DNA of 54,447 bases from Planctomycetota bacterium (GCA_024279285.1 JAJRRR010000004.1:1-54447), one strand, 5' to 3'. Positions 27,208 to 40,768 are shown, counted from the first letter of the stretch. Numbers and translations are program-made. The notes: a model not told the origin generated them from the letters alone.

Positions 27208-29049
27208 ATGGGCCAGACAGTCAGTTCTGACGCCAACATCATTACCAAAGCGTTTGTTTACTCTCTGGTGGTTATTGTGGCTGCGTTGATAACTGGCGCA
27301 GGAGTGTGGTATTGGGCCACTTCGGCTTCTGGGGAAACAGATCACATTACTCAATTTTCCACCCCGGATGAGCCGGAAGTTTTTGACCCCCGAGCCAAAG
27401 TTCCTGTTCCTAAGGTTCGGTTTGTGGATGTGACCAAGGAGTGTGGAATTGACTTTGTCCACGAAAACGGCTCGGAAGAAGATACTCTGTTGCCGGAGAT
27501 CATGAACGCCGGGGTGGCGCTTTTTGACTACGACAACGACGGAGATCTGGACATCTTCTTTACAAACTTTGCCCCTTGGCCTTCGTCCAAACGGGCTCTG
27601 ACCGAGCGGCATGTGCAAGCCCTGTATCGCAACGAAGGCAATTGGCGTTTTACCAATGTGACGGAGGAAGCCGGACTGGATGTGACTTTGCACGCTTTTG
27701 GAGTGGCCGTGGGCGACTACGACAACGACGGCTGGGACGACCTGTATGTGTCGTGCATCCTGGGCGAGAGTCGACTGTTTCGTAACCTGGGCAACGGCAA
27801 GTTTGAAGATGTGACTGATCAGGTAGGGCTGCGTTCTCCGCCCGGGGCGTTCCACACCAGTTGTGGATTCTTTGACTACGACAACGACGGCGATCTGGAC
27901 TTGTTCGTGTGCAACTATGTGGTCTGGTCCGAACAAGTCAACAAAGCCCTGTTTTTCCGCATAGAGAACGGGATCCGAGGCGTGGTCAATCCTCGCAACT
28001 TCGCCGGAACCCACTGCTACTTGTATCGCAACGACGGGGGTGTGTTCAGCGATGTTTCCGAACAAGCCGGAATCCATGTCTTCAATGTGGACAACAAACC
28101 TTTAGGAAAAGCCCTGGGCGTGATCTTCGTAGATTTGAACCACGACGGATGGACCGACATTGTGGTGGCCAATGACACCGTGCGAAACTTCGCCTTTATC
28201 AACCAAGGGGACGGCACCTTCGTTGAACGCGGCCGGGAAATCCAAGTGGCTTTTGATTCCTACGGCAACGCCCGAAGCGGCATGGGTATTGATGTGGCCG
28301 ACTTTCGCAACAACGGCACCTGGGGCATTGCCATTGGAAACTTCTCCGGGGAGATGAGCGCCCTTTTTGTCTCCAGCCCTCGCCACCTGGTCTTCACCGA
28401 CGAGGCCCCTGTGGCTGGGATCGGAGCTCCTACGGCTAGGCCACTTACCTTCGGCGTGTGCTTCTTTGACTTTGACCTGGACGGATGGCTGGACTATGCC
28501 CAAGCCAACGGCCATGTGGAGCCGGAAATCGCCCGAAGCGAAGAGGACATGACCTATCCTCAACCTCCCCAGTTATTCTGGAACTGCGGAGCATACCTCA
28601 AAGAAACTCTGTGTGATTTCATTGAGCTGAAAGAGGAAGACATTGGTCCGGACTTCTTCAAGCCCATCGTGGGCCGAGGGCTGGCTTACGGCGATCTGGA
28701 CGGCGATGGGGACCTGGATCTGGTGATTGCCGGAGTGGGTTCAGCGCCTCGAATCCTGCGCAACGATCAGCAACTTGGTCATCACTGGCTGCGCATCCAT
28801 CTGGAAGGCACCCATTGCAACCGCAACGCCTATGGAGCTTTGGTCGTGGCTCAGGCGGGCAAGTTGCGAATGCGCCGCGTGGTTTCGGCCACCCGAAGCT
28901 ACCTGACCCAATGCGAGCCCACGGTTACCTTCGGGCTGGGCAAATACAACAAGCCGGTGGAGGTGGAAATCACCTGGCCTTGCGGCAAAAAACAAACTCT
29001 TGAATTGGAACCCGATCGGCTGCACACCATCCGAGAACCGCAGGAGTAA
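27208..29049 (+). CDS. CRTAC1-family protein: membrane anchor + FG-GAP/VCBS beta-propeller repeats + ASPIC/UnbV C-terminal domain
   Basis: Repeated FDYDNDGDLD / GDYDNDGWDD / DLNHDGWTD / GDLDGDGDLD motifs. UnbV-like tail WLRIHLEGTHCNRNAYGALV...EITWPCGK. ATG 27208 is preceded by AAGGTGG; the track start 27196 is GTG. Confidence 0.85.
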   Translation: MGQTVSSDANIITKAFVYSLVVIVAALITGAGVWYWATSASGETDHITQFSTPDEPEVFDPRAKVPVPKVRFVDVTKECGIDFVHENGSEEDTLLPEIMNAGVALFDYDNDGDLDIFFTNFAPWPSSKRALTERHVQALYRNEGNWRFTNVTEEAGLDVTLHAFGVAVGDYDNDGWDDLYVSCILGESRLFRNLGNGKFEDVTDQVGLRSPPGAFHTSCGFFDYDNDGDLDLFVCNYVVWSEQVNKALFFRIENGIRGVVNPRNFAGTHCYLYRNDGGVFSDVSEQAGIHVFNVDNKPLGKALGVIFVDLNHDGWTDIVVANDTVRNFAFINQGDGTFVERGREIQVAFDSYGNARSGMGIDVADFRNNGTWGIAIGNFSGEMSALFVSSPRHLVFTDEAPVAGIGAPTARPLTFGVCFFDFDLDGWLDYAQANGHVEPEIARSEEDMTYPQPPQLFWNCGAYLKETLCDFIELKEEDIGPDFFKPIVGRGLAYGDLDGDGDLDLVIAGVGSAPRILRNDQQLGHHWLRIHLEGTHCNRNAYGALVVAQAGKLRMRRVVSATRSYLTQCEPTVTFGLGKYNKPVEVEITWPCGKKQTLELEPDRLHTIREPQE

Positions 29050-29310: not shown

Positions 29311-32300
29311 ATGTTCAGGGCAAGTCGGTGGTGTGCAGTGTTGGCGGCACTGATGTTGCTGGAGCTGCCGGTTTGGGCTCAGCAGGACGCTTCTTCCCAG
29401 GGGGCGCAGGCTCAATACAACGCGGCGGTGGCGTTGTTCAATCGTCGGGCCTATGACCTGGCCGCCGAACAGTTTGAAAAGTTCCTGCAAGAGTATCCCA
29501 AACACCCCCTTGTGCCCGATGCGCTTACCTATTTGGGCATCTGCTATATCAACACGGATCAGGCCGACAAGGCCGTGCCGGTGTTGCAACAGGTGTTGAA
29601 GCGGTTCCCTCAACACAAAATGCTGGAGACGGCCTGGTTTTTCCTGGCAATGGCCCGGTGGATGGACGCAGGAGAAGACGCCGCCAAGCTCCAACTGGCC
29701 GCCCGAAGCTTGGACCAGTTCCGGCGTCGGTTTCCCAAGAGCCGTTGGGCGGATCAGGCATTGTACTACCAGGGCGAGTGCTACATGAGTGCTCGACAGT
29801 GGCCCCAAGCCGTGGCTGTGTTTGAGCAACTGCTGCAACAGTTTCCCCAAAGTCGGCTGGTGGCCCCGGCCTTGTACAATTTGGGTGTGGCCCATCAGGA
29901 ACAGAAGCGTTGGGCCGCTGCGGAGAAGGTTTTTGATCGCTTTTTGCAAGCACACTCGCAGCATCCTTTGGCCCCCGAAGTGCAACTGCGTCGCGGCGAG
30001 GTGCGCCTGGAACAGAAAAACTACGCAGCGGCCCAAACTGACTTTGCCCAAGTGGCCCAGCACACCAAGTACCCTTTGGCCGACTATGCTCAGTTTCGTT
30101 TGGGCGAAGCTCTGGCCCGAGACGGCAAGCACCAGCAGGCCTTGCAAGCCTACCAGGAGTTGACGGAGCGGTTTCCCCGGTCCCAGTTTGTTCCGGCTGC
30201 CCTACTTGAGTCGGGCAAGCTCCACTTGCGATTGAAGCAACCCCGGGCGGCCGTGGAAGTGTTGGAAAAGATTGCTACCGAGGATGCGGAGCTTCGGGCT
30301 CAGGTACATCACTGGTTGTCCCGAGCCTGGCTCCAAGCTGGCGATTTCCAACGAGCTTACCAGGTGGCCCATCAGGGAGCCCAGGACGAAAAAGCCCCTC
30401 GCCGGTGGCAAGCCCAACTTTTGATGGACCAGGCCGACGCCCTTTATGAGCAGCCGGACCGCAAAGCCCAAGCCGCCTTGCTCTATCAAAGCCTGGTGAA
30501 TCAGTTTCCCCAAAGCCCTCTGGCTGCCGAAGCCCTGTACATGGCTGCTTTGGTCCATCTGGAGCTAAAGCAATATGAACGAGCTTTGGAGCTGGTGCGG
30601 CAGTTTCGGCAAAGTTTCCCGCAGCACGAGCTTCTAGCCGACACCGGGGTGGTGGAAGCGGAGGTGCTGTTGCTTAGCGGCCAACATCTTCAGGCTGCCC
30701 AACGCTTTGCCCAGTTGTTGGAAAACCACCCCCAGCATCCCGATCGGTCTTTGTGGATGCTGCGTCAAGGTGTGGCGTTGGAACTAGGAGGCCGCCATGC
30801 TCAAGCGCTCCAACTGCTTCAAGGGGTAGTGGAGAAGTTGGAAGATGCGCAGCGTCGGGCCGAGGCGTGGCATTGGTTGGGGCGCAGTGCCGTGGGGGTG
30901 AAGCGTTGGGACCTGGCTGCCCAAGCCCTCCAAAATGCCCTCCAACAGCCCCTGTGGTCCGGAGCTGACGAGAGTTTTCTGCTGCTGGCTCATGTCCAGG
31001 CCACCCAGGGAAATCTTCAAACGGCCCTGGGCACGGTGGAAAAAATGCTCCAGCTCCTGCCTCAGTCCCCCTTGGCCGACGAGGCTTACTACCGATTGGG
31101 CCAGTACGCTGCCCAATTGGGCCGGGATCAACAGGCTCTGGAAGCATATTCCCGAGTGCTTGCCCTGTGGCCCAAGAGTCGTTGGGTTCCTTACGCCCTG
31201 TTGGGCCGAGGGCTGTTGCACTTGAACGCAGATCACCCTGAACAAGCCTGTCAGGATTTTGCCGCCCTGTTGGAGCGTTTTCCCAAGCATCCCACGGCAC
31301 AGGATGCCCTGTTGGGGCGAGGGATGAGCCATTGGGTCCTGGGCCACTACGACCAGGCAGCCGAAGATTTCCAAAACTACCTGCTCCTGTATCCCCAAGC
31401 TCCCGGGCGACATCAGGCCCGGCTCCATCTAGCGCTCTGCTATGTGGAACAGAAGCGCTGGAACCAGGCCGTGCAGGAGCTGCGCCAACTGTTGGAGCAG
31501 TTTCCCCAACACGAGCAGAACGACCGGGTGCTTTATGAATTGGGTTGGGCCTATCGGGAACAAGGCAAAATGGACCAGGCCGCCCAGGCGTTTGCCCAAC
31601 TGGTCAAGCGGTTTCCTCAAAGCCCCCTTGCTCCTGAGGCCGCCTTGCACCTGGCTCAACGCCACTACGAAGCCAAACAGTACCTCCAAGCCTTGGCCGG
31701 ATATGAGCAGGCGCTCAAGCTCTTGCAAGCCAAGCACACCAGGCCGTTGGAGCCGTCCGTGGCGAGGGAATTGGCCGAACAAGCCCTGCACAAGAAGGCA
31801 TGGACCTTGTTTCATCTGAAGCGGTACGATCAGGCTCAAGCTACTTTGCAAGAGCTGCTGCAACGCTTCCCTCGGGGCAAAACGGTATCCATGGCCCGAT
31901 TTCTCCTGGGAGAATGTGCCTTTGCCCAAGGGGACTTTCGCCAGGCGTTGCAGCAGTACGAACAAGTCGGCCCTTTGAACGAGCGAACCAATCAAGTGGT
32001 GCTGGTCCTTCACGCAGCCCAAGCCGCCAACGCCTTGGAAGAGTACAAAAGGGCCCTGGAAGTGCTTGGCAACATGGACCAATGGAAGCAGGAAAAGCTC
32101 TACCCGGAGCTGCTGTTTGAAAGGGCCTATGCGTTGGACCTGTTGGGCCAGAAGGAGGAAGCCCGGAGACTTTATGAACAAGTGGCCCGAGCCACCCAGC
32201 GTGAAGTGGCAGCTCGGGCCCAATTCATGCTGGGCGAATACTATTTCGGCAAAAAACAGCACCGGGAAGCCATTCGTCACTTCTTCATGGCGGCTTACGG

Positions 32301-32493
32301 ATACAACTATCCCCGGTGGCAAGCCAATGCCCTGTTCGAAGCGGCCCGATGTTTTGAAGTCTTGCGGCGTATAGACCAGGCCAAAGAATGCTATCGGGAA
32401 CTCGTGGAGAAGTTTCCCCAGAGCAACAAAGCCCCGTTGGCCAGAAAACGGTTGCAAGCCCTGGATCAAACCCCCGCCGGACAGTCCCCGTAG
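29311..32493 (+). CDS. Exported giant TPR protein built from ~20 CpoB/YbgF-type TPR units
   Basis: Signal peptide MFRASRWCAVLAALMLLELPVWAQQ. One motif recurs throughout, e.g. FEKFLQEYPKHPLVPDALTYLGICY, FEQLLQQFPQSRLVAPALYNLGVAH, YQSLVNQFPQSPLAAEALYMAALVH, FAQLVKRFPQSPLAPEAALHLAQRH, YRELVEKFPQSNKAPLA. Confidence 0.85.
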   Translation: MFRASRWCAVLAALMLLELPVWAQQDASSQGAQAQYNAAVALFNRRAYDLAAEQFEKFLQEYPKHPLVPDALTYLGICYINTDQADKAVPVLQQVLKRFPQHKMLETAWFFLAMARWMDAGEDAAKLQLAARSLDQFRRRFPKSRWADQALYYQGECYMSARQWPQAVAVFEQLLQQFPQSRLVAPALYNLGVAHQEQKRWAAAEKVFDRFLQAHSQHPLAPEVQLRRGEVRLEQKNYAAAQTDFAQVAQHTKYPLADYAQFRLGEALARDGKHQQALQAYQELTERFPRSQFVPAALLESGKLHLRLKQPRAAVEVLEKIATEDAELRAQVHHWLSRAWLQAGDFQRAYQVAHQGAQDEKAPRRWQAQLLMDQADALYEQPDRKAQAALLYQSLVNQFPQSPLAAEALYMAALVHLELKQYERALELVRQFRQSFPQHELLADTGVVEAEVLLLSGQHLQAAQRFAQLLENHPQHPDRSLWMLRQGVALELGGRHAQALQLLQGVVEKLEDAQRRAEAWHWLGRSAVGVKRWDLAAQALQNALQQPLWSGADESFLLLAHVQATQGNLQTALGTVEKMLQLLPQSPLADEAYYRLGQYAAQLGRDQQALEAYSRVLALWPKSRWVPYALLGRGLLHLNADHPEQACQDFAALLERFPKHPTAQDALLGRGMSHWVLGHYDQAAEDFQNYLLLYPQAPGRHQARLHLALCYVEQKRWNQAVQELRQLLEQFPQHEQNDRVLYELGWAYREQGKMDQAAQAFAQLVKRFPQSPLAPEAALHLAQRHYEAKQYLQALAGYEQALKLLQAKHTRPLEPSVARELAEQALHKKAWTLFHLKRYDQAQATLQELLQRFPRGKTVSMARFLLGECAFAQGDFRQALQQYEQVGPLNERTNQVVLVLHAAQAANALEEYKRALEVLGNMDQWKQEKLYPELLFERAYALDLLGQKEEARRLYEQVARATQREVAARAQFMLGEYYFGKKQHREAIRHFFMAAYGYNYPRWQANALFEAARCFEVLRRIDQAKECYRELVEKFPQSNKAPLARKRLQALDQTPAGQSP

Positions 32494-32561
32494 CCTGGAC
32501 GACTTGTGGCCTGTTTGCAGGTGTGATTTCACAGAGGCGCTTTCAGGAGTCGGCAACTTCC

Positions 32562-33470
32562 ATGCACCAGAGAAGAAGCCTCGTAGTGATGTGGCTTTTG
32601 GCTGTGTGGCTAGGCACTGGTGGCTGGGTTTGGGCTCAACAGGAGCCGGGCCCTGGGGCCACTGAAGCTCAGCGGAGGTTTGAAGCTGCTTTTGCTGACC
32701 CGGGGCCGCAAGCCAAGGCCCAGACGCCTTCTCAGGCCGACTCTCCCCAGCGCCCCTCACCACGATTAAACATCCTGGAGTTGATGCTACGCGGAGGGTG
32801 GCTGATGCTGCCCATCGTGTTCATGTCATTGGTGGTGGCGGTATATGGGATTGAGCGCACGCTGGCTCTGAGACGGCGAAGGATTTTGCCCCAGGAGCTT
32901 GTGGATCAGTTGGCCCAAGTGGCCCAAAGCCCCGGAGGGCTGGACCCTCGGCGCGTGTACCGATTGTGTCAGCGGTTGCCTTCGGCGGCTTCCAATGTCA
33001 TTCGGGCAGTGATGCTCAAGGTGGGCCGCCCTCATGCCGAGGTGGAAATGGCCGTCAAAGATGCCATGCAACGCGAGGCCGACCGACTCTATGCCAATGT
33101 GCGTCCGTTGACTCTGGCCGCCGCAGTGACGCCTTTGCTGGGCCTGTTGGGCACGGTCTGGGGGATGATCAAGGCCTTCTTTCTTACCGCTTCTGGCTAT
33201 GCCCAGGTCAACAAAGCCGAACAACTGGCCGACGGCATCTACACGGCTTTGGTGACCACTTTTGCCGGTTTGGCGGTGGCGATTCCGGCGGCAGTGCTGG
33301 CTCATTGGCTAGAAGGACGCATCCAGAGTCTGCTTCGTGAAGTGGAAGAATTGCTGCTGAACATGCTGCCTCAGTTGGAGCGTTTTGAAGGGAAGCTGCG
33401 TTTGCGGCCTTCGGGCACTCCGGCTCGGGAGCCTGAACCGGCTACCACGCCGTCTGTGGAAAAAACCTGA
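32562..33470 (+). CDS. MotA/TolQ/ExbB-family proton channel protein with an N-terminal signal-like segment and periplasmic extension
   Basis: WLMLPIVFMSLVVAVYGIER..., LTLAAAVTPLLGLLGTVWGMIKAF, TALVTTFAGLAVAIPAAVLAHW are the canonical three-TM ExbB/TolQ core. Confidence 0.88.
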   Translation: MHQRRSLVVMWLLAVWLGTGGWVWAQQEPGPGATEAQRRFEAAFADPGPQAKAQTPSQADSPQRPSPRLNILELMLRGGWLMLPIVFMSLVVAVYGIERTLALRRRRILPQELVDQLAQVAQSPGGLDPRRVYRLCQRLPSAASNVIRAVMLKVGRPHAEVEMAVKDAMQREADRLYANVRPLTLAAAVTPLLGLLGTVWGMIKAFFLTASGYAQVNKAEQLADGIYTALVTTFAGLAVAIPAAVLAHWLEGRIQSLLREVEELLLNMLPQLERFEGKLRLRPSGTPAREPEPATTPSVEKT

Positions 33471-33523
33471 TCCATCGCGCCAAAGCCAACCGTACCTGCG
33501 GAAACCACTTTTCCCGTGCAGCC

Positions 33524-33946
33524 ATGAGTGTTCAGATACGCCGGAGTCGGGTCACTGGGGCGTTGAGCCTCACACCGCTTATTGATGTGGTGTTTTTGCT
33601 GTTGATTTTTTTCCTGGTGGCCACGCGATTTGAGGAGGAGGAACGGTGGCTGGATGTGGCGTTGCCCGAGGCGGCTCAGGCTGCCCCCTTGATCTCCCGG
33701 CCTAAGGAAATCCTGGTCAACATTGACCAGCAAGGGCGTTACTTTGTGGGCACGCGGCAGTATTCCTTGCACGAGCTGGAGAAGCTGCTTCGCCAGGCGG
33801 CGGCCAGCAATCCGGGGCGCCAGCAGGTTGGCATTCGGGCCGATCGCCGCTGCCGTTGGCAACCGATCGTTACCGTCATGGACTTGTGCAACAAGGTGGG
33901 AATCCGCGACTACTATGTGCTGGCCCAGGAACCACAAGGCCCTTAG
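33524..33946 (+). CDS. ExbD/TolR-family biopolymer transport protein
   Basis: 140 aa. LSLTPLIDVVFLLLIFFLV contains the conserved TM aspartate, followed by the periplasmic domain ...ILVNIDQQGRYFV...VGIRADRRCRWQPIVTVMDLC. Confidence 0.88.
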   Translation: MSVQIRRSRVTGALSLTPLIDVVFLLLIFFLVATRFEEEERWLDVALPEAAQAAPLISRPKEILVNIDQQGRYFVGTRQYSLHELEKLLRQAAASNPGRQQVGIRADRRCRWQPIVTVMDLCNKVGIRDYYVLAQEPQGP

Positions 33947-33949
33947 CCC

Positions 33950-36900
33950 ATGAAACGCCACCGAATTCGTCGGGTGCATTGGGAATGGGAAAGCGCCTGG
34001 GATGAGCAGCTTTGGCCGATCAACGGGCTGCTGGTCATCCTGGGTGGGTGTGTGGCCGGGCTGATCGGAGCCCTGGGCGAGTTTGACCATCCCGTGTGGT
34101 TCCGCAACGCCTGGTTCCATCTGGCTGTGGTGGGAGCCACGGTGTTGGCGTTGATCGTGGGTACCTTTTGGGTCAGCACCCGACGCGGTGCCCGAAGAAT
34201 GCAACTGGCCGTGTTGATGGCCTTGGGATTGCATTTGTTGTTGGCCGTGGTGCTTTATGTGGTGCCAATTTATTTGAAAACCATTCTGGCTCGCACCCGG
34301 TCCCCGACAACCAAACAGCCGCCCAAGATCACGCTGACCAATTATGGACGCCCTCGGCCTGAGGAGTCCCTGGACCCGGAAATCACCCACCCTCAAGCTC
34401 TGCCTCAGCAGCCCACTGCTTCGGTTCCAGTGGAGGTGGAGCGATCCGCAGTGCGACATTCGCCGGTTCAGGTGTCTGCGGTTCCCCAGGTGGCTGCTTC
34501 GTCAGCTCGCCCTCGGACCCTTTCCCCCCGACGCCCTCAACACCAGACGGACTTGGCCCCTGGGGCGTCTCTACGGTGGCAAAAACCTCAGGTGTCCGAG
34601 ACCCCAAGTGTTCAAGCCCCTTTGCGTCCTTCTGTGGCCCAGCAGAAAGCCGACCAGGTGCAGCTTCACACTCAAGTGAGCAAGCGCCCCTTGGAAGCTG
34701 TACCGCTTCGGATGAAAACAAGGCCGGAGCCCTTGACTTCGGCTCGGGTGCAGGCCCAATTGCCTTCTCGCCGGGAGGTTGCTCCGCCCCAAGGGGCCCA
34801 GGTAAAAATTCGTCGTCAACGACTTGCGGCGGTGGAGGCCTCGGTCCGCGCTTCGGCCCAAGCACCGGCCAGAGCCTCTAGGGGCCAGGTGGAGTTGGCG
34901 GATTCGGCTGGAGTGCAGCGTCGTCGGATTCGGGAAGCCCCCGTCATAGAGCTGCCGAGGCTTGCACTTCCAGGTGGCAATGCGTCCTCAGGTGCCGCGT
35001 CGGTTGGGAAGGTGGCCCAAGCTCGGACGGTTCCCCATGAGCCGCAGTTGAGTTCGTCGGTCTCAGCCACTCCTGCTCGTCAAAGGGCACCCGTGCCTCA
35101 GGTGGCTGCAACCACCGCTGCGGTTCCCTCAGCGGGATCGGCCCAAGTGGCCCCTGAACCTGTGGCTCCTGGGGGTCTTTTGAACCGAAAGGAGGCTTCG
35201 GCCCGGGGTGCCACCAGCGCTGAGGCTCCGCCACCTGGCACAGGGAGAGCTTCTGCCCTAGGCTCGCAGGTGGCTTCAGCCCGACGAAGCTTGAAAGGCA
35301 AGCAGCCACTGGGCTCAGGCTCTTTGTCGGGACAAGCTGTAGCTTTGGCTCGGCAGAAGGTCAGCCCAGGTCGCCTGGCTGTTCCGGCTCCTCAAGCTAT
35401 GGCTGCTGCGGCTCAGGCCAACGGTTCCGGGTCTGGCACGCTTACTCCCACAGCTTCTTCGGGAGAGACTTCATTGGGAGAAAAGCTAAGCCCTGTTTCC
35501 GACTCCAGGCTTGCCTTCTCTGGTCAAGGGCTGAGTAGTCCTTTGGGCAAAGGCAGTTCGTCCTTGTCCCAAACGATTGCTTCGGCCGCGCAGGGTAGAG
35601 CTTCCGGCAGCTTGCAAGAAAATCCTGGTGGAGCCCGATCCCAGCATGGTTCGCTTGTGCAGCGTTCCCGAGCGGTTGCTTCTCTCCCCGAGTCAGGAGC
35701 TGCAAGTGTGAATGCCCCCCTGGCAAAAAGCTCCGGCGACGAAACCAAAAGCTCCGCCTTGTCTGAGGGTGTGGCTTCAACCACGGCTCAGGGAACAGGT
35801 TCATTGCCTGGGCGGAATAAGGCGCCGGTTGCCCTTGACCAATCGGCCACGGCGGCTCCTGGCACCGTGGCGCAGGAGCTTCCAGGTTCGGAGCATGCGG
35901 CACGCCAGGGGATTGCCGCCCGAGGGCTCAGTCTCCAAGAACGCGGCTCTGCGGAAGCTCCGGCAAAGGAAGGCACTCTACCCCGAACCAAGCCAGGTGG
36001 ACCGCTTCTGTCAGCTCCCGTGGCTCCTGTTGCTCAAGCGGAAAAGGTTGCCGGTTCTCCCAAAGCAACCGTTGCCGAAGCGGAAGGCCCTGGAGAAGCA
36101 GCATCTGAGCGCAGCTTGGGCAAACAGCCTCTGGAAGTGGTGGCCCGATCTTCAGCCTCCCACCTGGGCAGATTGTCCGGTGGAGGGACAGGGTCCGTGG
36201 TGGTGCGTCCCCGAGGACATTCGGCGGCTGAAGCAGCCTCGACCACCCGGAGGTTTCGCTTGCCTCGGGCATCAGCTCCGGGGCTGGAGGAAGTGCCGGT
36301 TGCCCGTCGGGCCCGACCTGCCTTCCAAGCCCGAGACCCCCGACGCCGAGGCCAGGTGGCCCAAAGCCGAGGTGGCTCCCCAGAAACCGAAGCCGCCGTG
36401 GAAGCCGGACTGGCTTTCCTGGCTCGCCACCAGATGCCCGATGGAAGTTGGAGCTTGCACCGGTTTGCCGAAGGCAAAGGCTATGGCCCAGGCGTGGGTA
36501 TTGCTCAAATGCACTCCGACACCGCTGCCACGGGGCTGGCCCTGCTGGCTTTTCTAGGGGCCGGATATACCCACCTGGAAGGCAAATACCGCACTCAAGT
36601 GGCTGCCGGATTGCAATGGCTCATTCGCCACCAAAAACCCAACGGCGACTTGTTCACCGGAGGCTCGCGTTATGCGTGGCTTTATAGCCACGGGATCGCG
36701 GCCATTGCGTTGTGCGAAGCTTATGGAATGACCCAGGATCCCCAGCTTCGCCTCCCGGCTCAAAAAGCTTTGCAGTTCATCGTGGCCGCTCAACATCCCA
36801 CCTTGGGCGGATGGCGTTATCGGCCTGGGGTGGGCACGGACACTTCGGTCAGTGGTTGGCAACTCATGGCCCTGAAAAGTGGCGAGCTGGCCGGACTGGA

Positions 36901-37429
36901 AGTGCCCCGGCAGGTCTATGACCGGCTTCGCTCGTGGTTGGCTCGGGCTCAATGGCCCCAAAACCCCGGCCTTTATGTCTATCGTCCCTCGGCTCGCTAC
37001 CAGCACCAACGCACCCCCAGCCGAGCCATGACTGCCGAAGCGCTGCTGATGCAACTTTACCTGGGCCATTCGCCTCAAGGACCCATGCTCCAACAAGGAG
37101 CCCGATACCTGAGAAACCATCTCCCCCGCTACACCGCCCAAGGGGCTCAGCGAGATGCCTACTACTGGTACTACGCCACCCAGGTAATGTTCCATGTAGG
37201 CGGAGAGCATTGGCAGGTGTGGAATCGTCACCAACGCCAGGTGCTATTGGAAACCCAAGTGAAAGAAGGCCCTCTGGCTGGGAGTTGGGACCCCTTGGTT
37301 CCGGTGCCGGATCGTTGGGGACCCGCCGCAGGACGCATCTATGTCACTGCTTTGCATCTGTTGATCCTGGAAGTGTACTATCGTCATCTTCCCCTTTACG
37401 GACCGGATGTCGTGGCTCGCACTCCGTAG
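33950..37429 (+). CDS. Large envelope protein: 3 N-terminal TM helices + ~700-aa Ser/Ala/Pro/Gly/Gln-rich low-complexity spacer + C-terminal prenyltransferase/squalene-cyclase-like alpha/alpha-toroid domain
   Basis: Starts 3 nt after the exbD/tolR stop. TMs: LLVILGGCVAGLIGALG, WFHLAVVGATVLALIVGTFWV, LAVLMALGLHLLLAVVLYVV. C-terminus (about 36380-37426): AVEAGLAFLARHQMPDGSWS...ATGLALLAFLGAGY...GLQWLIRHQKPNGDL...YSHGIAAIALCEAY...ALQFIVAAQHPTLGGWRY...VSGWQLMALKSG, which is the repeat pattern of the toroid family. Confidence 0.8.
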   Translation: MKRHRIRRVHWEWESAWDEQLWPINGLLVILGGCVAGLIGALGEFDHPVWFRNAWFHLAVVGATVLALIVGTFWVSTRRGARRMQLAVLMALGLHLLLAVVLYVVPIYLKTILARTRSPTTKQPPKITLTNYGRPRPEESLDPEITHPQALPQQPTASVPVEVERSAVRHSPVQVSAVPQVAASSARPRTLSPRRPQHQTDLAPGASLRWQKPQVSETPSVQAPLRPSVAQQKADQVQLHTQVSKRPLEAVPLRMKTRPEPLTSARVQAQLPSRREVAPPQGAQVKIRRQRLAAVEASVRASAQAPARASRGQVELADSAGVQRRRIREAPVIELPRLALPGGNASSGAASVGKVAQARTVPHEPQLSSSVSATPARQRAPVPQVAATTAAVPSAGSAQVAPEPVAPGGLLNRKEASARGATSAEAPPPGTGRASALGSQVASARRSLKGKQPLGSGSLSGQAVALARQKVSPGRLAVPAPQAMAAAAQANGSGSGTLTPTASSGETSLGEKLSPVSDSRLAFSGQGLSSPLGKGSSSLSQTIASAAQGRASGSLQENPGGARSQHGSLVQRSRAVASLPESGAASVNAPLAKSSGDETKSSALSEGVASTTAQGTGSLPGRNKAPVALDQSATAAPGTVAQELPGSEHAARQGIAARGLSLQERGSAEAPAKEGTLPRTKPGGPLLSAPVAPVAQAEKVAGSPKATVAEAEGPGEAASERSLGKQPLEVVARSSASHLGRLSGGGTGSVVVRPRGHSAAEAASTTRRFRLPRASAPGLEEVPVARRARPAFQARDPRRRGQVAQSRGGSPETEAAVEAGLAFLARHQMPDGSWSLHRFAEGKGYGPGVGIAQMHSDTAATGLALLAFLGAGYTHLEGKYRTQVAAGLQWLIRHQKPNGDLFTGGSRYAWLYSHGIAAIALCEAYGMTQDPQLRLPAQKALQFIVAAQHPTLGGWRYRPGVGTDTSVSGWQLMALKSGELAGLEVPRQVYDRLRSWLARAQWPQNPGLYVYRPSARYQHQRTPSRAMTAEALLMQLYLGHSPQGPMLQQGARYLRNHLPRYTAQGAQRDAYYWYYATQVMFHVGGEHWQVWNRHQRQVLLETQVKEGPLAGSWDPLVPVPDRWGPAAGRIYVTALHLLILEVYYRHLPLYGPDVVARTP

Positions 37430-37438
37430 GTGTGCCCG

Positions 37439-40400
37439 ATGCATTCCCACACGCTTTGTCCCAAACGCTGCTTTTGGCATCTAGGGCTTGTGCTTTTGAG
37501 TTTGGGAGCCGTGGGGTTCCAAGTAGGAGTCTTGCTGGGGCAGGAGGGCGAGGAAGAGTCGGGATTTCGGGTGCCTCCAGGGTTTGAAATCCGCCTGTTC
37601 GCCCCTGACCAACTGGCCCACAACATCTTCAGCATGACCGTGGACCACCAGGGGCATGTGATCGTGGCAGGGCCCAAGTATGTCAAACGCCTGGTGGACG
37701 AAGACGGAGACGGTCGGGCGGATCGGGCGGTGCTGCTGTCCCAACAACCCGGAAGTGGTGCCCATGGCCTTTATCTGGACGACCAAGGACTGGTTTTCAC
37801 TGGGGACAATGTGGTGGGCTTTTTGCCTTGGGCCCCATCAGGCCAGAAGTTGCAAGGACCCGTGCAAGTGTGGACCCACTTGCGACATCCCGAACACGGA
37901 GCCAACGGCGTGCTTCGCGGTCCGGATGGCTGGTGGTATATCATCTGCGGAAACGATGCCCAAGTGGATGAGCGTCATGTGGGCACTCCCTTTTCCCCGG
38001 TTCGGCAAGTTCACAATGGGGCCATTGTGCGTATTGGTCCTGGGGGAAAACCCATAGAAGTGTTGGCCCATGGGTTCCGAAACCCCTACGACGCGGCGTT
38101 TTGGCCCTGGGGGGCGCTTCTGCTGGTGGACGCCGACGGGGAGCGCGATCATCACTTGCCCTGGTATGCCCCCAATCGGCTCTTTGATGTGGCCTGGGGA
38201 GTCCACCACGGTTGGGTTCTCCAGGGATGGCGGCGCAGTTGGAATCGTCCGCCGTGGTTCCCCGATGTTGCACCCTGGACTTTTGCCATCGGGCGAGGTT
38301 CGCCCACGGGAGCAGTGGTTTATCGGCATTGGGCGTTTCCTCGGCGGTACCACAACGGACTGTTTACTTGTTGCTGGACCTTGGGTCGCGTGTACTTTTT
38401 CCGCCTGGAGGTGCAAGGGGCGGAGCTTCGGGCCAGGCGGGAAGTTTTTTTGGAATCGGTGGGCCACACGGGACTAGCTCCGGTGGATGTGGCGGTAGGT
38501 CCTCAGGGGGAAATGTATGTGGCTGTCGGGGGCCGAGGGACACGAGGCAGCGTGTTCGTCATCCGCTACCAAGGCCCCAAAGCTCCCGTCTCTGAACCCA
38601 AGCAACCCTCCGATCCTTTGGCCCTGGTGCTGCAAGCTCCACAGCCTTTGAGTGCGTGGAGTCGGGCTCGTTGGGTGCCGTTGGCTCGCCACCTGGGGCC
38701 TGCTCCTTTTGCCCAAGTGGTGCTTGATCCCAACTGGCCAGAGCTTTGTCGCGTTCGGGCGGTGGAGGTGCTGGTGGAGTGCTTTGCTGGAGTGCCGCTC
38801 CAACTACGCAAGAAGCTGGCCGGATGGAAGCCGGACAGCCCTCGGGTGCAAGCCCGGTTGGCTTGGGCCCTGGGCTTGTGTCATCCCCAGGATCGCCAGG
38901 CTGTGGAACTTCTGTGTCGCTGGAGCGAGACGCACCAGCCCTGGGTGGCCCGATGGACCTGGGAAGCTCTCCTGCGATGCGATCCCCAGGTGGCCCAAAA
39001 CCTGAGAGTGCAACCGCGTTGGGACTTGGGCCTGGCCAGTCCTTGGCGGCGAGTGCGGCTAGTGGCTCGCACGGTGGCCAGGCGTTGGGGCGTGGATCAC
39101 TTCCCGGCTCCTGCTGACTCCCCCTATCACTTGGCCCGAACCCTGGCCAACTTCTACCTCCAAGCGTGGCGACTAACCCGAGTGGACGAGCGATTTTTGC
39201 GAAGCCTGTTGGAACTTTGGCAAAGCCACAAAGATGTGCCGACCCAATTGGAACTGGTGCGCTTGGTTCAGTTGGGCTGTGGGGACATAGACCCCAGCGT
39301 GCAAAAACCGGATGTGCTTGCCGGCTACACTTTCCGCTGGCACGAACAGCTCTCGGAGCAAATGAAACGGGAGATTGCCACTTTGGTGGCGGAGCGTTTT
39401 CCCTCAGGGGATCGGGCGTTGGACTACGAACTGGCCCGAGTGGCCTGTGCCCTCCGCCATCCGGTTCCCCAGATGCTGGACCTGCTGGCCCGAAAGTGGA
39501 CCAATGAAAGCTCTCCGGTGGATGATGTGCACTGGCTGATATGTGCAGCAGGGATTCCGGGTTCTCGCAGTGGGTTTTTCCGTCGCCGGTGCGCCGAGGC
39601 CGTCTTGCGTTTGCCGGAAAAAATGTCCGCCCGAGGAATGCACCCCAGCCGCAACTGGCCGCTTCGGGTGGGCGAAGCCGTGAAGGAGCTTTTGCGACAC
39701 GATGAGCAGTTGGGCCCGGAGCTAATCCGCAACCCCCTGTTCCGACTGCCGGAGCAGGCGGGGTTTGCTCTCCTGCTGCCTAAAAAGCTGCGTGCTCAGG
39801 CGGCTCGAGTTCTGCTTGGCCGATGGTCTGACCGGGACGACCCCCAACAATGGACCGCCGAGTTGATCCTGTTGGTAAGCCACCTGCCGCCTGAGGAAGC
39901 CTTGCCAGTGCTTCGCCCGTTGGCTCAGGAACCGGCCCTTCGGGACCTGGTGGTGGTTCAAATGGCCCGATGGCCTCGCCCAGAAGACCGTCAGGTGTTC
40001 GTTCAGGCCCTGAGTTCTCCTCAGCCGCATGTGGTTCAAGCGGCGGCGGAAGCTTTGACTTCTCTTTCTGCTCAGGTGAAAGAGTCAGAGCTTGCTGCGG
40101 CTCTCGGGGCCCTGGGGCGCTCGGCCCCCTATCGGGAGCTTGCCCAAGTGCGTCAGGCACTTCATCGCTTGCTTTGGCACTGGGTTTTTCAGGATCGTTC
40201 CCCGGACTCTCCGGCTCCTGTGCGAGATGGCAAAGCGTTGCTTGGATGGTGGCTTGAGCAGATTAAACCTCGTTGGCCGCAAGTGGCAACCCAAGTGGCT
40301 GCTTCTTCGGCTCGCAACCTGGACCAGTGGCGCAAGCGCCTCCGGCGGATTGAGTGGTCCTCGGGAGACGCAGATCGGGGCAAGGTGGTGTTTGAGCGGT

Positions 40401-40768
40401 TGCGATGTCATTTGTGTCATCGTGGGGTGCGTCGCTTGGGCCCTGACTTGGCCGGGGTGGCCCAACGCTTCGCCCCTCTGGACCTGATGATGGCCATCGT
40501 GGACCCCAGCCGCGATGTGGCCCCCTTGTATCGCACCAAGATGGTGTTGACCCGATCCGGCCAGGTGTTTTACGGACTGGTGGTCTATGAATCGCCCGAA
40601 GGAACGCTGCTACAAACCGGCCCAGAAACCACCGTGCGCTTTTCGGCCGATCAGGTGGAACAAATTGTGCCCAGCGCCCGATCGCTCATGCCCGAGGGAC
40701 TTCTGGATCAAGCCACCGACCAGGACCTGGCCGATTTGTACGCCTACTTGCGATCACTGAAAAAGTGA
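37439..40768 (+). CDS. PVC-type heme-binding protein: N-terminal anchor + membrane-bound-dehydrogenase-like beta-propeller region + HEAT-like helical repeats + C-terminal CxxCH cytochrome c domain
   Basis: Hydrophobic N-terminus CFWHLGLVLLSLGAVGFQVGVLLG. PPGFEIRLFA...VDHQGHVIVAG...DGDGRAD is typical of the TIGR02604-type domain. CHLCH is at 40406-40420, followed by GPDL...M...P...MPEG, typical of the TIGR02603-type heme domain. ATG 37439 (AGGTG upstream); alternative GTG 37430 directly abuts the upstream stop. Confidence 0.85.
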   Translation: MHSHTLCPKRCFWHLGLVLLSLGAVGFQVGVLLGQEGEEESGFRVPPGFEIRLFAPDQLAHNIFSMTVDHQGHVIVAGPKYVKRLVDEDGDGRADRAVLLSQQPGSGAHGLYLDDQGLVFTGDNVVGFLPWAPSGQKLQGPVQVWTHLRHPEHGANGVLRGPDGWWYIICGNDAQVDERHVGTPFSPVRQVHNGAIVRIGPGGKPIEVLAHGFRNPYDAAFWPWGALLLVDADGERDHHLPWYAPNRLFDVAWGVHHGWVLQGWRRSWNRPPWFPDVAPWTFAIGRGSPTGAVVYRHWAFPRRYHNGLFTCCWTLGRVYFFRLEVQGAELRARREVFLESVGHTGLAPVDVAVGPQGEMYVAVGGRGTRGSVFVIRYQGPKAPVSEPKQPSDPLALVLQAPQPLSAWSRARWVPLARHLGPAPFAQVVLDPNWPELCRVRAVEVLVECFAGVPLQLRKKLAGWKPDSPRVQARLAWALGLCHPQDRQAVELLCRWSETHQPWVARWTWEALLRCDPQVAQNLRVQPRWDLGLASPWRRVRLVARTVARRWGVDHFPAPADSPYHLARTLANFYLQAWRLTRVDERFLRSLLELWQSHKDVPTQLELVRLVQLGCGDIDPSVQKPDVLAGYTFRWHEQLSEQMKREIATLVAERFPSGDRALDYELARVACALRHPVPQMLDLLARKWTNESSPVDDVHWLICAAGIPGSRSGFFRRRCAEAVLRLPEKMSARGMHPSRNWPLRVGEAVKELLRHDEQLGPELIRNPLFRLPEQAGFALLLPKKLRAQAARVLLGRWSDRDDPQQWTAELILLVSHLPPEEALPVLRPLAQEPALRDLVVVQMARWPRPEDRQVFVQALSSPQPHVVQAAAEALTSLSAQVKESELAAALGALGRSAPYRELAQVRQALHRLLWHWVFQDRSPDSPAPVRDGKALLGWWLEQIKPRWPQVATQVAASSARNLDQWRKRLRRIEWSSGDADRGKVVFERLRCHLCHRGVRRLGPDLAGVAQRFAPLDLMMAIVDPSRDVAPLYRTKMVLTRSGQVFYGLVVYESPEGTLLQTGPETTVRFSADQVEQIVPSARSLMPEGLLDQATDQDLADLYAYLRSLKK

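What the first reader, a model, noticed from the sequence alone, without database searches (positions are those of the whole stretch)
29311..40768. Candidate non-canonical Tol-Pal/TonB-like energised envelope system
Five co-directional genes make up the cluster. (1) An exported protein built from ~20 CpoB/YbgF-type TPR units. (2) A TolQ/ExbB channel. (3) TolR/ExbD with the conserved TM Asp. (4) Three nt later, a 1159-aa protein with a membrane anchor, a ~700-aa extended low-complexity spacer and a globular C-terminal head. (5) Within 10 nt, an anchored beta-propeller-like/HEAT/cytochrome c protein. The logic of stator, stator, anchor-spacer-head transducer and propeller protein, with a CpoB-like TPR partner, mirrors tolQ-tolR-tolA-tolB-(pal)-cpoB. 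It also mirrors exbB-exbD-tonB. However, none of the non-stator parts is canonical. There is no TolA-III or TonB C-terminal domain, no TolB and no OmpA-like Pal. The head domain is a prenyltransferase/squalene-cyclase-like alpha/alpha toroid. Classical Tol-Pal components are hard to recognise in many planctomycetes, whose envelope and division biology is unusual. A proton-motive-force-driven module with substituted periplasmic partners would therefore be a plausible undescribed system.
Basis: partly seen in the sequence, partly recalled or inferred. Interest (0 to 1): 0.7.

Follow-up and report, generated by a model that had tools for sequence, protein, structure and literature searches.

The report
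TonB-like force transducer with toroid head
Planctomycete bacteria carry a conserved four-gene cassette in which a proton-driven membrane motor sits next to a very long TonB/TolA-like tether that ends in an unusual ring-shaped (alpha/alpha toroid) head; this looks like an undescribed way for them to send energy across their cell envelope.

Summary
Only four of them form a conserved unit.

**Conserved cassette.** In 80 genome loci from Pirellulales and Planctomycetales, the order giant TPR - ExbB/TolQ - ExbD/TolR - anchor/spacer/toroid protein recurs. ExbD lies directly upstream of the transducer in about 59 of 60 evaluable loci. The TPR gene is present in 46 of 54.

**Fifth gene.** The PVC-type heme, propeller and HEAT protein is a neighbour specific to this lineage, not a TolB analogue.

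**TonB/TolA-like features of the 1159-aa protein.**
- Its third membrane helix carries a TonB/TolA-style Ser-x3-His-x6-Leu motif. His is present in 56 of 60 sequences, and the only variant is Asn.
- A D-box-like strand motif follows the helix.
- Next comes a disordered spacer of 283-1753 residues.
- The protein ends in a confidently modelled (alpha/alpha)6 toroid (pLDDT 92). The toroid has no DxDD cyclase motif and no close solved relative.

**Paralogues.** A family of about 520-590-aa proteins has one SxxxH membrane helix and the same head. These genes are not linked to a motor and often lie in tandem, like orphan TonB paralogues.

**Verdict.** This is a new variant of a known kind, the TonB/TolA-type force transducer with a substituted head; vWA-headed ones were described in 2025. 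Its target and physiological role are unknown.

The parts
29311..32493 (+). Giant exported TPR protein (1060 aa) built of YbgF/CpoB-type TPR units. It is a frequent but not universal first gene of the cassette.
   Evidence: TIGR02795 scores 407 bits in 12 stretches; PF13174 and PF13432 match. A homologue lies upstream of ExbB in 46 of 54 loci with enough flank.
32562..33470 (+). ExbB/TolQ-family stator subunit (302 aa). It has an N-terminal signal-like segment, a short extension and three membrane helices.
   Evidence: PF01618 matches at E = 5e-25. The best solved relatives are TolQ chains 9kpz and 8odt at E = 3e-11. Conservation across 59 orthologues: Thr198 58/58, Thr232/233 58-59/59, Pro242 51/59, Ser89 in TM1 56/57. 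The protein scores below both the TolQ and the ExbB equivalog cut-offs.
33524..33946 (+). ExbD/TolR-family stator subunit (140 aa) with the membrane-helix Asp21.
   Evidence: PF02472 matches at E = 3.5e-26. It aligns to ExbD chain 7ajq_F at E = 3e-8, with TPLIDV on TPFIDV. Asp21 is conserved in at least 95% of 61 orthologues. There is a single copy, not a pair.
33950..37429 (+). The transducer (1159 aa): three-helix anchor, spacer, toroid head. It starts 3 nt after the ExbD stop codon.
   Evidence: A single ORF of 800-2280 aa runs from ExbD to the head in nearly all loci. In a search of 1.84 billion representative proteins, 89 of 91 long proteins with this anchor carry this head.
34196..34297 (+). 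TM3 of the transducer, RRMQLAVLMALGLHLLLAVVL. It is a TonB/TolA-like helix, and His95 is encoded at 34232-34234.
   Evidence: Counts in 60 orthologues relative to the His: R/K at -13 in 57, Gln at -10 in 54, Ser at -4 in 43 (the rest are Ala, Cys or Gly; the window has Ala), His in 56 (the other 4 are Asn), Leu or Met at +7 in 43. The motif definition comes from PMC12215075.
34328..34345 (+). Candidate D-box / motor-box strand, ITLTNY. The family consensus is hydrophobic-T-hydrophobic-P-D/E-Y.
   Evidence: Pro is present in 52 of 60 sequences and Tyr in 53 of 60, about 34-39 residues after the His. It is compared with the TonB D-box QPISVTMVTPAD (PMC10907165). Binding to ExbD is inferred, not tested.
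34355..36019 (+). Low-complexity periplasmic spacer, residues about 136-690. Composition: Ala 17%, Ser 13%, Pro 10.5%, Gly 9%.
   Evidence: Composition is. Spacer length in orthologues ranges from 283 to 1753 aa with a median of 664, all rich in Ala, Pro, Ser and Gly.
36020..36295 (+). Conserved but disordered pre-head segment. The family consensus is LPVxIAAxxGPGGL..VGxPSRRARxES..V..RF, and the window's version is degenerate.
   Evidence: The head profile matches from residue 691. The consensus comes from alignment A5. AlphaFold2 gives pLDDT below 50 for residues 660-780.
36296..37402 (+). C-terminal (alpha/alpha)6 toroid head, residues about 783-1151.
   Evidence: The AlphaFold2 model has pLDDT 92.3 and pTM 0.91. 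The best Foldseek matches in the PDB are single-domain class II terpene cyclases, AprG, GH76, GH8 and epimerases, at TM-score 0.5-0.6 and at most 18% identity. The profile matches squalene-hopene cyclase at E = 3e-8 through QW-like repeats only. No DxDD motif occurs in 0 of 60 heads. Identity across the loci is 49-78%, making it the most conserved part.
37430..40768 (+). PVC-type heme-binding protein (DUF7133 propeller, HEAT, one CxxCH site). It is adjacent in this genome only and is not part of the conserved cassette.
   Evidence: Domain hits are, and the CHLCH site at residue 993 is. No homologue lies downstream of the head in L001-L003 or most other loci. No gene family is conserved downstream, and about half of the next genes are on the opposite strand.

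Best explanation
Genes 29311-37429 form a four-gene cassette conserved in Planctomycetia. It encodes an ExbB/ExbD-type motor driven by the proton-motive force, together with its own TonB/TolA-like force transducer.

**Steps resting on motor family membership and conserved residues**
- ExbB and ExbD keep the residues needed for proton-driven motion. These are Asp21 in the ExbD membrane helix and the Thr ring and Pro in ExbB TM2 and TM3.

**Inferred steps**
- The 1159-aa protein docks on the rim of the ExbB pentamer through its third membrane helix. This helix carries the Ser/Ala-x3-His-x6-Leu face that TonB and TolA use.
- A short strand just outside the membrane (ITLTNY; family consensus hydrophobic-T-hydrophobic-P-D-Y) is captured by the periplasmic domains of the ExbD dimer, as the TonB D-box is.
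- The disordered spacer of about 550 residues, rich in Ala, Ser, Pro and Gly, spans the wide planctomycetal periplasm.
- The highly conserved alpha/alpha toroid head grips a conserved target at or near the outer membrane or cell wall, so that motor action pulls on it.
- The giant YbgF-type TPR protein acts as a periplasmic scaffold or partner, in the way CpoB binds TolA. The conserved disordered pre-head motif is a plausible TPR or target-binding peptide.

**Paralogues and neighbours**
- Short paralogues with one membrane helix and the same head, encoded elsewhere, probably share the same motor, as orphan TonB paralogues do.
- The downstream heme/propeller gene is an unrelated neighbour.

The target and the physiological role are not known. 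Tol-Pal-like envelope tethering and TonB-like import are both possible.
For: **Synteny.** TPR-ExbB-ExbD-transducer recurs in Pirellulales and Planctomycetales. ExbD lies immediately upstream of the transducer ORF in 55 of 60 evaluable loci. Four of the five exceptions are ORF-calling or frameshift artefacts. Clustering of all ORFs finds only these four conserved families.

**Anchor.** The His is conserved in 56 of 60 sequences. Ser or another small residue sits at -4, Leu or Met at +7, and Arg or Lys at -13, the same register as TonB R7/S16/H20/L27 (PMC12215075). The only natural replacement of the His is Asn. Asn is reported to substitute fully for TonB His20 (Swayne & Postle 2011; only the title was seen, in the reference list of PMC8928145).

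**Strand motif.** A conserved strand motif follows the helix. The D-box concept comes from PMC10907165.

**Anchor-head coupling.** 89 of 91 long proteins with this anchor carry the toroid head.

**Independent support from paralogues.** The short paralogues are 490-600 aa. 89 of 94 have a single membrane helix, and 93 of 94 have SxxxH-x6-hydrophobic in it. A hydrophobic strand lies 22-28 residues after the His, and the head is the same. They are not linked to a motor and often lie in tandem.

**Motor.** The essential motor residues are conserved.

**Precedent.** vWA-headed transducers with an SHLS helix lie downstream of TPR-tolQ-tolR genes in PVC bacteria (PMC12204202, section 8).
Against: - The anchor shows no statistically significant sequence similarity to TonB or TolA. 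A profile search against the PDB does not retrieve them, so the resemblance is at motif level only.
- The last Ser of the SHLS motif is absent, and the window itself has Ala instead of the first Ser.
- The long form has two extra membrane helices that TonB and TolA lack.
- The ExbB TM1 Trp that contacts the TonB/TolA His has no clear equivalent. The TM1 alignment is ambiguous by about 6 residues, although Ser89 is nearly invariant.
- The head has no TonB_C fold. Seventy-three of its positions, including His, Cys, Glu, Asp and Arg, are at least 95% conserved across the long and short forms. That pattern fits an enzyme or small-ligand site as well as it fits a docking surface.
- No complex modelling, expression data or genetics could be run or found.
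- Whether these genomes also encode canonical TonB could not be checked.
Confidence: 0.68

Rival explanations
1. The toroid protein is mainly a membrane-tethered periplasmic enzyme or ligand carrier that acts on a glycan, the cell wall or an isoprenoid lipid. It sits on a long leash. Its linkage to ExbB/ExbD reflects energised catalysis, gating or transport of its substrate, not mechanical pulling on an outer-membrane partner.
For: - The fold is shared with glycoside hydrolases (GH8, GH76), epimerases, lyases and class II cyclases, all of which are enzymes with a central pocket.
- The head is the most conserved part of the system, at 49-78% identity.
- Seventy-three positions, including His875, Cys922, Glu923, Asp930, Asp964, Arg956 and Arg1129, are at least 95% conserved across the long and short paralogues.
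- PF09492 (which I recall as the pectic acid lyase family, cf. TIGR02474 pec_lyase) and PF05147 (which I recall as LanC-like) appear among the precomputed hits of homologues.
Against: - No catalytic motif of any of these families is recognisable. DxDD occurs in 0 of 60 heads, and no Pfam or NCBIfam family is matched above its cut-off.
- The TonB-like membrane helix, the strand motif and the strict motor linkage are not explained by an enzyme role alone.
- This rival is compatible with force transduction and does not exclude it.
Confidence: 0.17
2. The propeller/HEAT/cytochrome c protein (37430-40768) is an integral TolB-like periplasmic partner of the transducer.
For: The gap to the transducer gene is 0-9 nt on the same strand. 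In 2 of the 10 loci examined, the next gene is also a planctomycete cytochrome-c-domain protein (PSCyt1/PSCyt2/PSD1 in L018 and L031).
Against: - No homologue lies downstream in the closest relatives L001-L003 or in most of the 65 loci with downstream sequence.
- About half of the next genes are on the opposite strand.
- No downstream gene family is shared by more than 7 loci.
- Domain families of this kind are, from my own knowledge, highly multiplied in these genomes, so adjacency by chance is likely.
Confidence: 0.05
3. The ExbB/ExbD pair serves a canonical TonB or TolA encoded elsewhere, and the toroid protein and the TPR protein are functionally unrelated neighbours.
For: ExbB/ExbD pairs without an adjacent tonB gene are common in bacteria (established knowledge). 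The rest of these genomes could not be inspected.
Against: - Adjacency holds in about 59 of 60 loci across two orders, with gaps of a few nucleotides.
- The anchor and the head are coupled in 89 of 91 proteins.
- The anchor carries a conserved TonB-type His helix.
- The Tol-Pal system is described as largely reduced in Planctomycetes (PMC8871954).
Confidence: 0.05
4. The cassette powers a surface machine rather than envelope maintenance or import. Candidates are a gliding, adhesion, holdfast or fibre apparatus, in the manner of the Myxococcus AglRQS-Glt system.
For: TolQ/TolR-like motors drive such machines in other phyla, and Williams-Jones et al. raise this idea for the vWA-headed transducers (PMC12204202). 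A giant secretin gene lies 8 kb away in the window.
Against: No Glt-like, pilus or adhesin genes are conserved next to the cassette. The secretin is not part of the conserved neighbourhood.
Confidence: 0.05

Closest known systems
TonB (ExbB-ExbD-TonB) and TolA (TolQ-TolR-TolA) periplasmic force transducers
   Same: - The gene lies immediately after an exbB/tolQ-exbD/tolR pair.
- The membrane helix runs N-in, C-out and carries Ser-x3-His-x6-Leu in the same register as TonB S16/H20/L27, with basic residues at the cytoplasmic end.
- A conserved short strand-like motif follows the helix.
- A long disordered, proline-containing periplasmic region comes next, followed by a globular C-terminal domain.
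- Extra paralogues are encoded away from the motor.
   Different: - The C-terminal domain is a toroid of about 370 residues, not the TonB_C/TolA_III fold of about 90 residues.
- The motor-linked form has three membrane helices instead of one.
- The spacer is 283-1753 residues, against roughly 100-300.
- The last Ser of SHLS is absent.
- There is no detectable sequence homology to TonB or TolA.
- No TonB-dependent receptor, TolB or Pal partner was identified.
vWA-headed force transducers of PVC, Bacteroidota and Proteobacteria (Williams-Jones et al. 2025, PMC12204202)
   Same: The logic is the same: a TonB/TolA-like helix with the conserved His, a disordered linker and a non-TonB globular head. 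In PVC bacteria these genes lie downstream of a TPR gene and tolQ/tolR-like genes. Their function is also unknown.
   Different: The head is an alpha/alpha toroid, not a vWA fold; the transducer has no VWA match. There is one tolR/exbD-like gene rather than a heterologous pair. The spacer is far longer than the reported domain II of about 100 residues. The anchor has two extra membrane helices.
Tol-Pal system with CpoB (YbgF)
   Same: The stator is closest to TolQ and TolR among solved structures and NCBIfam models. A YbgF-type TPR protein is encoded in the same cluster.
   Different: - There is no TolB, no Pal or OmpA-like lipoprotein, and no TolA domain III.
- The TPR protein is about four times the length of CpoB (E. 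coli CpoB is about 260 aa; the NF008068 profile is 263 positions), has no CpoB-style N-terminal coiled coil that I could see, and falls below the CpoB equivalog cut-off (182 against 383 bits).
- The TPR gene comes first in the cluster, not last.
Single-domain class II terpene cyclases (MstE, the 8paj 'SHC') and other (alpha/alpha)6 toroid proteins
   Same: The fold matches: six inner and six outer helices, QW-like repeats (L..Q..DGSW), and conserved polar residues at the N-terminal ends of the inner helices.
   Different: TM-scores are only 0.5-0.6 and identity is at most 18%. There is no DxDD or DxD acid motif. The head is predicted to be periplasmic and tethered. It is distinct from the two-domain 'SHC-like' PVC clade of 550-700 aa discussed in PMC12324236.

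Membership tests
MotA/TolQ/ExbB and ExbD/TolR stator families | Pfam PF01618 and PF02472 matched above the gathering score | tested here: met
   88.1 bits against a cut-off of 22.9, and 92.2 bits against 25.4.
MotA/TolQ/ExbB and ExbD/TolR stator families | Proton-binding Asp in the ExbD/TolR membrane helix; Thr ring and Pro in ExbB/TolQ TM2 and TM3 | tested here: met
   Asp21 aligns with the ExbD TPFIDV motif and is conserved in at least 95% of 61 orthologues. Thr198 is conserved in 58/58, Thr232/233 in 58-59/59 and Pro242 in 51/59.
TolQ or ExbB equivalogs (NCBIfam) | Score above the equivalog cut-off | tested here: not met
   TolQ TIGR02796 scores 62.5 against 221, ExbB TIGR02797 40.9 against 206, TolR TIGR02801 59 against 127, and ExbD models score 37-40 against 123-153. 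These are divergent members assignable to neither named system.
TonB/TolA-type force transducer | Encoded with, and dependent on, an ExbB/ExbD-type motor | tested here: met
   Adjacency is met: a 3-nt gap in the window and conservation in about 59 of 60 loci. Dependence on the motor cannot be tested with these tools.
TonB/TolA-type force transducer | [quoted passage not shown] | tested here: inconclusive
   His is present in 56 of 60 sequences (4 have Asn). Ser at -4 is present in 43 of 60 (the window has Ala). Leu or Met at +7 is present in 43 of 60. There is no Ser at +11. Short paralogues have SxxxH-x6-hydrophobic in 93 of 94. The match is at motif level only; a profile search does not retrieve TonB or TolA.
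TonB/TolA-type force transducer | D-box / motor-box strand just after the membrane helix that binds the ExbD/TolR dimer | tested here: inconclusive
   A conserved hydrophobic-T-hydrophobic-P-D/E-Y motif is present (Pro 52/60, Tyr 53/60). Short forms have a hydrophobic strand 22-28 residues after the His. Binding was not tested.
TonB/TolA-type force transducer | Periplasm-spanning proline-rich or helical domain II | tested here: met
   The spacer is 283-1753 aa and rich in Ala, Pro, Ser and Gly. The part modelled is disordered.
TonB/TolA-type force transducer | C-terminal TonB_C / TolA domain III fold that binds its target by strand addition | tested here: not met
   PF03544 and PF06519 are not matched. 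The C-terminal domain is an (alpha/alpha)6 toroid.
Tol-Pal system | TolB (PD40 propeller with N-terminal domain) and Pal (OmpA-like lipoprotein) encoded with the motor | tested here: not met
   The five proteins have no PD40 or OmpA matches. No such family is conserved in the neighbourhood. Gene 5 is a DUF7133/heme protein and is not conserved.
Tol-Pal system | CpoB/YbgF TPR protein | tested here: inconclusive
   TIGR02795 is matched above its cut-off, but through 12 repeated stretches (407 bits). The CpoB equivalog NF008068 is below its cut-off (182 against 383). The TPR type is the same, but the protein is not an orthologue.
vWA force transducers (PMC12204202) | vWA C-terminal domain on an SHLS membrane helix | tested here: not met
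   The transducer has no VWA family match. The head is a toroid.
Class II terpene cyclase / squalene-hopene cyclase | DxDD general-acid motif | tested here: not met
   The motif occurs in 0 of 60 heads. The profile alignment to squalene-hopene cyclase covers residues 398-590, i.e. QW repeats, not D374-D377.
Class II terpene cyclase / squalene-hopene cyclase | Family model matched above its cut-off | tested here: not met
   PF13243 scores 21.3 against 26.1, and TIGR01787 scores 29.8 against 322.7.
Zorya or other anti-phage systems with MotAB-like stators | ZorA/ZorB or other PADLOC models | tested here: not met
   The only match is a marginal ZorA hit to ExbB at E = 0.0065. The other four proteins have none.

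The most novel reading that the evidence does not exclude
Toroid-headed proteins are the planctomycetal counterpart of the TonB/TolA family. The motor-linked long form, together with the giant TPR protein, would do the Tol-Pal-like job: energised tethering or remodelling of the outer membrane or cell wall across a very wide periplasm, in bacteria with a largely reduced Tol-Pal system. The multiple short forms would act as TonB-like adaptors. All would use a conserved toroid pocket to grip a common motif or envelope molecule, instead of the strand addition used by TonB_C.
Probability: 0.3. Interest if true: 0.85.

Novelty: new variant of a known kind. Interest (0 to 1): 0.64.

Why it matters
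A published survey describes the Tol-Pal system as largely reduced in Planctomycetes (PMC8871954), and these bacteria have an unusually wide periplasm (my own background knowledge). How they couple inner-membrane energy to the outer envelope is open.

This cassette is conserved across Pirellulales and Planctomycetales. Together with its family of short paralogues it gives a concrete, testable candidate. It also extends the recent finding that the TonB/TolA design can carry quite different heads (PMC12204202).

Specific experimental handles exist: His95, ExbD Asp21, the ITLTNY strand, the pre-head motif and the toroid pocket. The cassette also occurs in cultured strains such as Blastopirellula marina DSM 3645, Bremerella cremea, Roseimaritima sediminicola and Anatilimnocola sp. 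NA78.

Tried and rejected
- **Word-index search with the anchor profile.** It gave only four fragments and was uninformative. The exhaustive representative search replaced it.
- **Anchor profile against the PDB.** It found no TonB or TolA, only chance hits to membrane proteins. Homology to TonB/TolA cannot be claimed.
- **Exact look-up of the window protein in assemblies.** The nearest relative is a Planctomycetota MAG at 78% identity in the head (L001).
- **Cluster-member look-up for taxonomy.** It returned no organism names.
- **Promoter and terminator scan.** It found nothing above the shuffled expectation, so it says nothing about operon structure.
- **PADLOC scan.** No defence system was found.
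- **Terpene cyclase activity.** Rejected: no DxDD motif, all family scores below cut-off, and low TM-scores.
- **Gene 5 as a TolB analogue.** Rejected on lack of conservation.
- **ExbB TM1 Ser/Trp network that contacts the TonB/TolA His.** Ser89 is nearly invariant, but the alignment to TolQ TM1 is ambiguous and no Trp equivalent is evident. This is left as inconclusive.
- **Second structure model, residues 660-1159.** The conserved pre-head segment does not fold on its own.
- **Literature searches.** No description of a toroid-headed transducer was found. The searches cover open-access papers only.

Full report
**What is in the window**

- Gene 1 (29311-32493) is a 1060-aa protein with a signal-like N-terminus, made almost entirely of TPR units of the YbgF/BamD type. 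TIGR02795 scores 407 bits in 12 stretches, and PF13174 and PF13432 match.
- Gene 2 (32562-33470) is a MotA/TolQ/ExbB protein (PF01618, E = 5e-25).
- Gene 3 (33524-33946) is an ExbD/TolR protein (PF02472, E = 3.5e-26).
- Gene 4 (33950-37429) starts 3 nt after gene 3 and encodes 1159 aa. It has three hydrophobic segments at residues 21-46, 53-78 and 83-116, a spacer rich in Ala, Ser, Pro and Gly, and a C-terminal domain with only a weak squalene-cyclase repeat match.
- Gene 5 (37430-40768) follows with no gap. It combines a DUF7133 propeller, HEAT repeats and the PVC-type heme domain, with one CHLCH site.

None of the five matches TonB_C, TolA_C, OmpA or PD40. None matches an anti-phage model, apart from a marginal ZorA hit to ExbB. 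The surrounding genes are ordinary chromosomal genes: the glycine cleavage system, RsgA, ThiG, YchF and tRNA-His.

**Which genes belong together**

The head domain has thousands of relatives at 49-78% identity. I fetched 80 genome loci, each with up to 10 kb of flank on both sides. They come from Pirellulales (Blastopirellula, Bremerella, Roseimaritima, Rubripirellula, Anatilimnocola, Thermoguttaceae) and Planctomycetales (Fuerstiella and Planctomycetaceae MAGs).
- In nearly every locus with enough upstream sequence, the head is the end of one long ORF of 800-2280 aa that begins right after an ExbD gene. That gene is preceded by ExbB and usually by a TPR gene of about 1000 aa.
- ExbD is immediately upstream in 55 of 60 evaluable loci. 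Four of the five exceptions are split ORFs or start-calling artefacts that still carry ExbD. One locus, L014, lacks the motor.
- All three upstream genes are present in 46 of 54 loci.
- Unsupervised clustering of all ORFs in the loci recovers only these four families. The other recurrent clusters are antisense shadow ORFs.
- Nothing is conserved downstream. About half of the next genes are on the other strand, and those on the same strand are of unrelated kinds.
- Gene 5 has no counterpart downstream in the closest relatives.

The unit is therefore four genes. Gene 5 is a neighbour specific to this lineage.

**The anchor looks like TonB/TolA**

I aligned the N-termini of 60 orthologues. The third membrane helix is the most conserved part. 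Counted from the His:
- R/K at -13 in 57 of 60
- Gln at -10 in 54
- Ser at -4 in 43 (otherwise Ala, Cys or Gly; the window has Ala)
- His in 56, with Asn in the other four
- Leu or Met at +7 in 43

This is the Ser-x3-His-x6-Leu part of the SHLS motif, through which TonB and TolA bind ExbB and TolQ. In the cryo-EM structures the Ser and His are the structurally conserved contacts, and the Leu and the second Ser are less conserved (PMC12215075). The spacing from the basic residues to the His also matches TonB (R7 to H20).

The only natural variant of the His is Asn. Asn is reported to substitute fully for TonB His20 (Swayne & Postle 2011; only the title was seen, in the reference list of PMC8928145).

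About 34-39 residues after the His lies a conserved motif, hydrophobic-T-hydrophobic-P-D/E-Y (Pro in 52 of 60, Tyr in 53 of 60; ITLTNY in the window). Its position and alternating pattern recall the TonB D-box QPISVTMVTPAD, which the ExbD dimer captures as a strand (PMC10907165). Williams-Jones et al. call the equivalent element the motor box (PMC12204202).

Two limits apply. A profile of the anchor does not retrieve TonB or TolA from the PDB, so this is a motif-level resemblance and not demonstrated homology. The long form also has two extra helices.

**The motor is intact**
- ExbD Asp21 aligns with the proton-binding Asp of ExbD and is conserved.
- ExbB aligns best with TolQ. It keeps the TM2 Thr (58/58), the TM3 Thr pair and Pro242.
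- A TM1 Ser (Ser89, 56/57) may correspond to the Ser that contacts the TonB/TolA His. The alignment there is ambiguous, and no equivalent of the Trp is evident.
- Both proteins score far below the TolQ, TolR, ExbB and ExbD equivalog cut-offs, so they belong to neither named system.

**Spacer, pre-head segment and head**
- The spacer ranges from 283 to 1753 residues (median 664) and is always rich in Ala, Pro, Ser and Gly.
- About 100 residues before the head there is a conserved linear segment, LPVxIAAxxGPGGL..VGxPSRRARxES..V..RF. It is modelled as disordered, so it is a candidate binding peptide.
- The head itself is modelled with high confidence as an (alpha/alpha)6 toroid (pLDDT 92.3, pTM 0.91).
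- Its nearest solved structures are single-domain class II terpene cyclases, AprG, GH76 and GH8 enzymes and sugar epimerases. All match at TM-score 0.5-0.6 and at most 18% identity.
- The profile match to squalene-hopene cyclase (E = 3e-8) runs through the QW-type repeats, not the catalytic region. No head has a DxDD motif (0 of 60).
- The head is the most conserved component, with median identity to the window of 55%. The medians for ExbB, ExbD and the TPR protein are 52%, 51% and 32%.

**A second, shorter family**

One locus (L015) carries a 525-aa paralogue 1 kb downstream of the cassette. It has a single membrane helix (ASFLFHFALILSLAL), a short linker and the same head, 41% identical to the window's. 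A search with this paralogue gave the following.
- It has at least 2766 relatives.
- Of the 94 top hits that are 490-600 aa long, 89 have one membrane helix and 93 have SxxxH-x6-hydrophobic in it.
- A hydrophobic, strand-like stretch lies 22-28 residues after the His, close to where the TonB D-box sits.
- These genes are not next to ExbB/ExbD and often lie in tandem. Four lie in a row on an 8.76-Mb contig, and two on a Pirellulales MAG contig.

This is the canonical three-part TonB layout with a toroid in place of TonB_C. The genomic pattern recalls orphan TonB paralogues that share a motor. Seventy-three head positions are at least 95% conserved across both forms, which argues for a common ligand or partner motif.

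In the exhaustive search with the long-form anchor, 89 of 91 long hits carry the toroid. No other head type was found attached to this anchor.

**Comparison with what is known**

Williams-Jones et al. (2025, PMC12204202) described TonB/TolA-like proteins with vWA heads. [quoted passage not shown] The present cassette follows the same plan, but with a different head, one tolR-like gene, a much longer spacer and a three-helix anchor.

My searches of open-access literature found no description of a toroid-headed transducer. The PVC 'SHC-like' clade in the cyclase literature consists of two-domain proteins of 550-700 aa and is a different group. Tol-Pal is reported as largely reduced in Planctomycetes (PMC8871954).

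**Most likely mechanism and its limits**

I read the cassette as a proton-driven ExbB/ExbD-type motor with a dedicated TonB/TolA-like transducer. The transducer's toroid head engages a conserved envelope target across a wide periplasm, and the giant TPR protein is a periplasmic partner.

Shown here:
- the gene content
- the conservation of the four-gene order
- the motor residues
- the motif register in the anchor
- the fold of the head
- the existence of the short paralogues

Inferred:
- docking of TM3 on ExbB
- capture of the strand by ExbD
- force transmission
- any role of the TPR protein
- the nature of the target

An enzymatic or ligand-carrying role for the head remains a serious alternative or addition. 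I could not run multimer modelling, scan whole genomes for canonical TonB, or find expression or mutant data.

Noticed in passing
L015:12192-13766 (-); L081:3882-11564 (+); L083:6099-9632 (+): A large family of short (about 490-600 aa) proteins has one SxxxH membrane helix and the same toroid head. They are not linked to ExbB/ExbD and often lie in tandem: four in a row on an 8.76-Mb contig and two in a Pirellulales MAG.
   Followed up: partly
window 36020-36295 (transducer residues 691-782): A conserved linear segment before the head (consensus LPVxIAAxxGPGGL..VGxPSRRARxES..V..RF) is modelled as disordered. It may be a binding peptide, for example for the TPR protein. The window's copy is degenerate.
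   Followed up: partly
window 48809-52858 (-) and 45103-48642 (-): An unusually large secretin-domain protein (1349 aa; PF00263 matches only in the last 200 residues) lies next to an 1179-aa protein built of many WD40 repeats.
   Followed up: no
window 19288-21378 (+): A BatA/VWA protein (PF07584 plus PF13519) lies 8 kb upstream. It is not adjacent to any motor genes, so it is not one of the published vWA transducers by context.
   Followed up: no
window 13962-15248 (-): A putative beta-barrel porin (PF07585, BBP7).
   Followed up: no
L018:11269-14055 (+) and L031:11165-14641 (+): In two loci the gene after the transducer is a PSCyt1/PSCyt2/PSD1 cytochrome-c-domain protein. Like the window's heme protein, it carries a cytochrome-c-type domain from a planctomycete family, so the resemblance may be chance or may be a weak trend.
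   Followed up: no
L014, L006, L077: L014 has the full-length transducer without an adjacent ExbB/ExbD pair. In L006 and L077 the transducer reading frame is interrupted within the spacer, either by a frameshift or by an assembly error in low-complexity sequence.
   Followed up: no
window 32562-32770 (ExbB residues 1-70): This ExbB has an N-terminal signal-like hydrophobic segment and a proline-rich extension of about 45 residues before TM1. The extension is poorly conserved among orthologues.
   Followed up: no
L023 (JAYVNW010000119.1): One locus is binned as Candidatus Kuenenia, an anammox planctomycete. The contig is only 7.8 kb, so this could be mis-binning or a sign of wider distribution.
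   Followed up: no
window 27196-29049 (+): The gene upstream of the cassette is an FG-GAP/ASPIC (UnbV) repeat protein, 260 nt before the TPR gene. It is not conserved with the cassette.
   Followed up: partly
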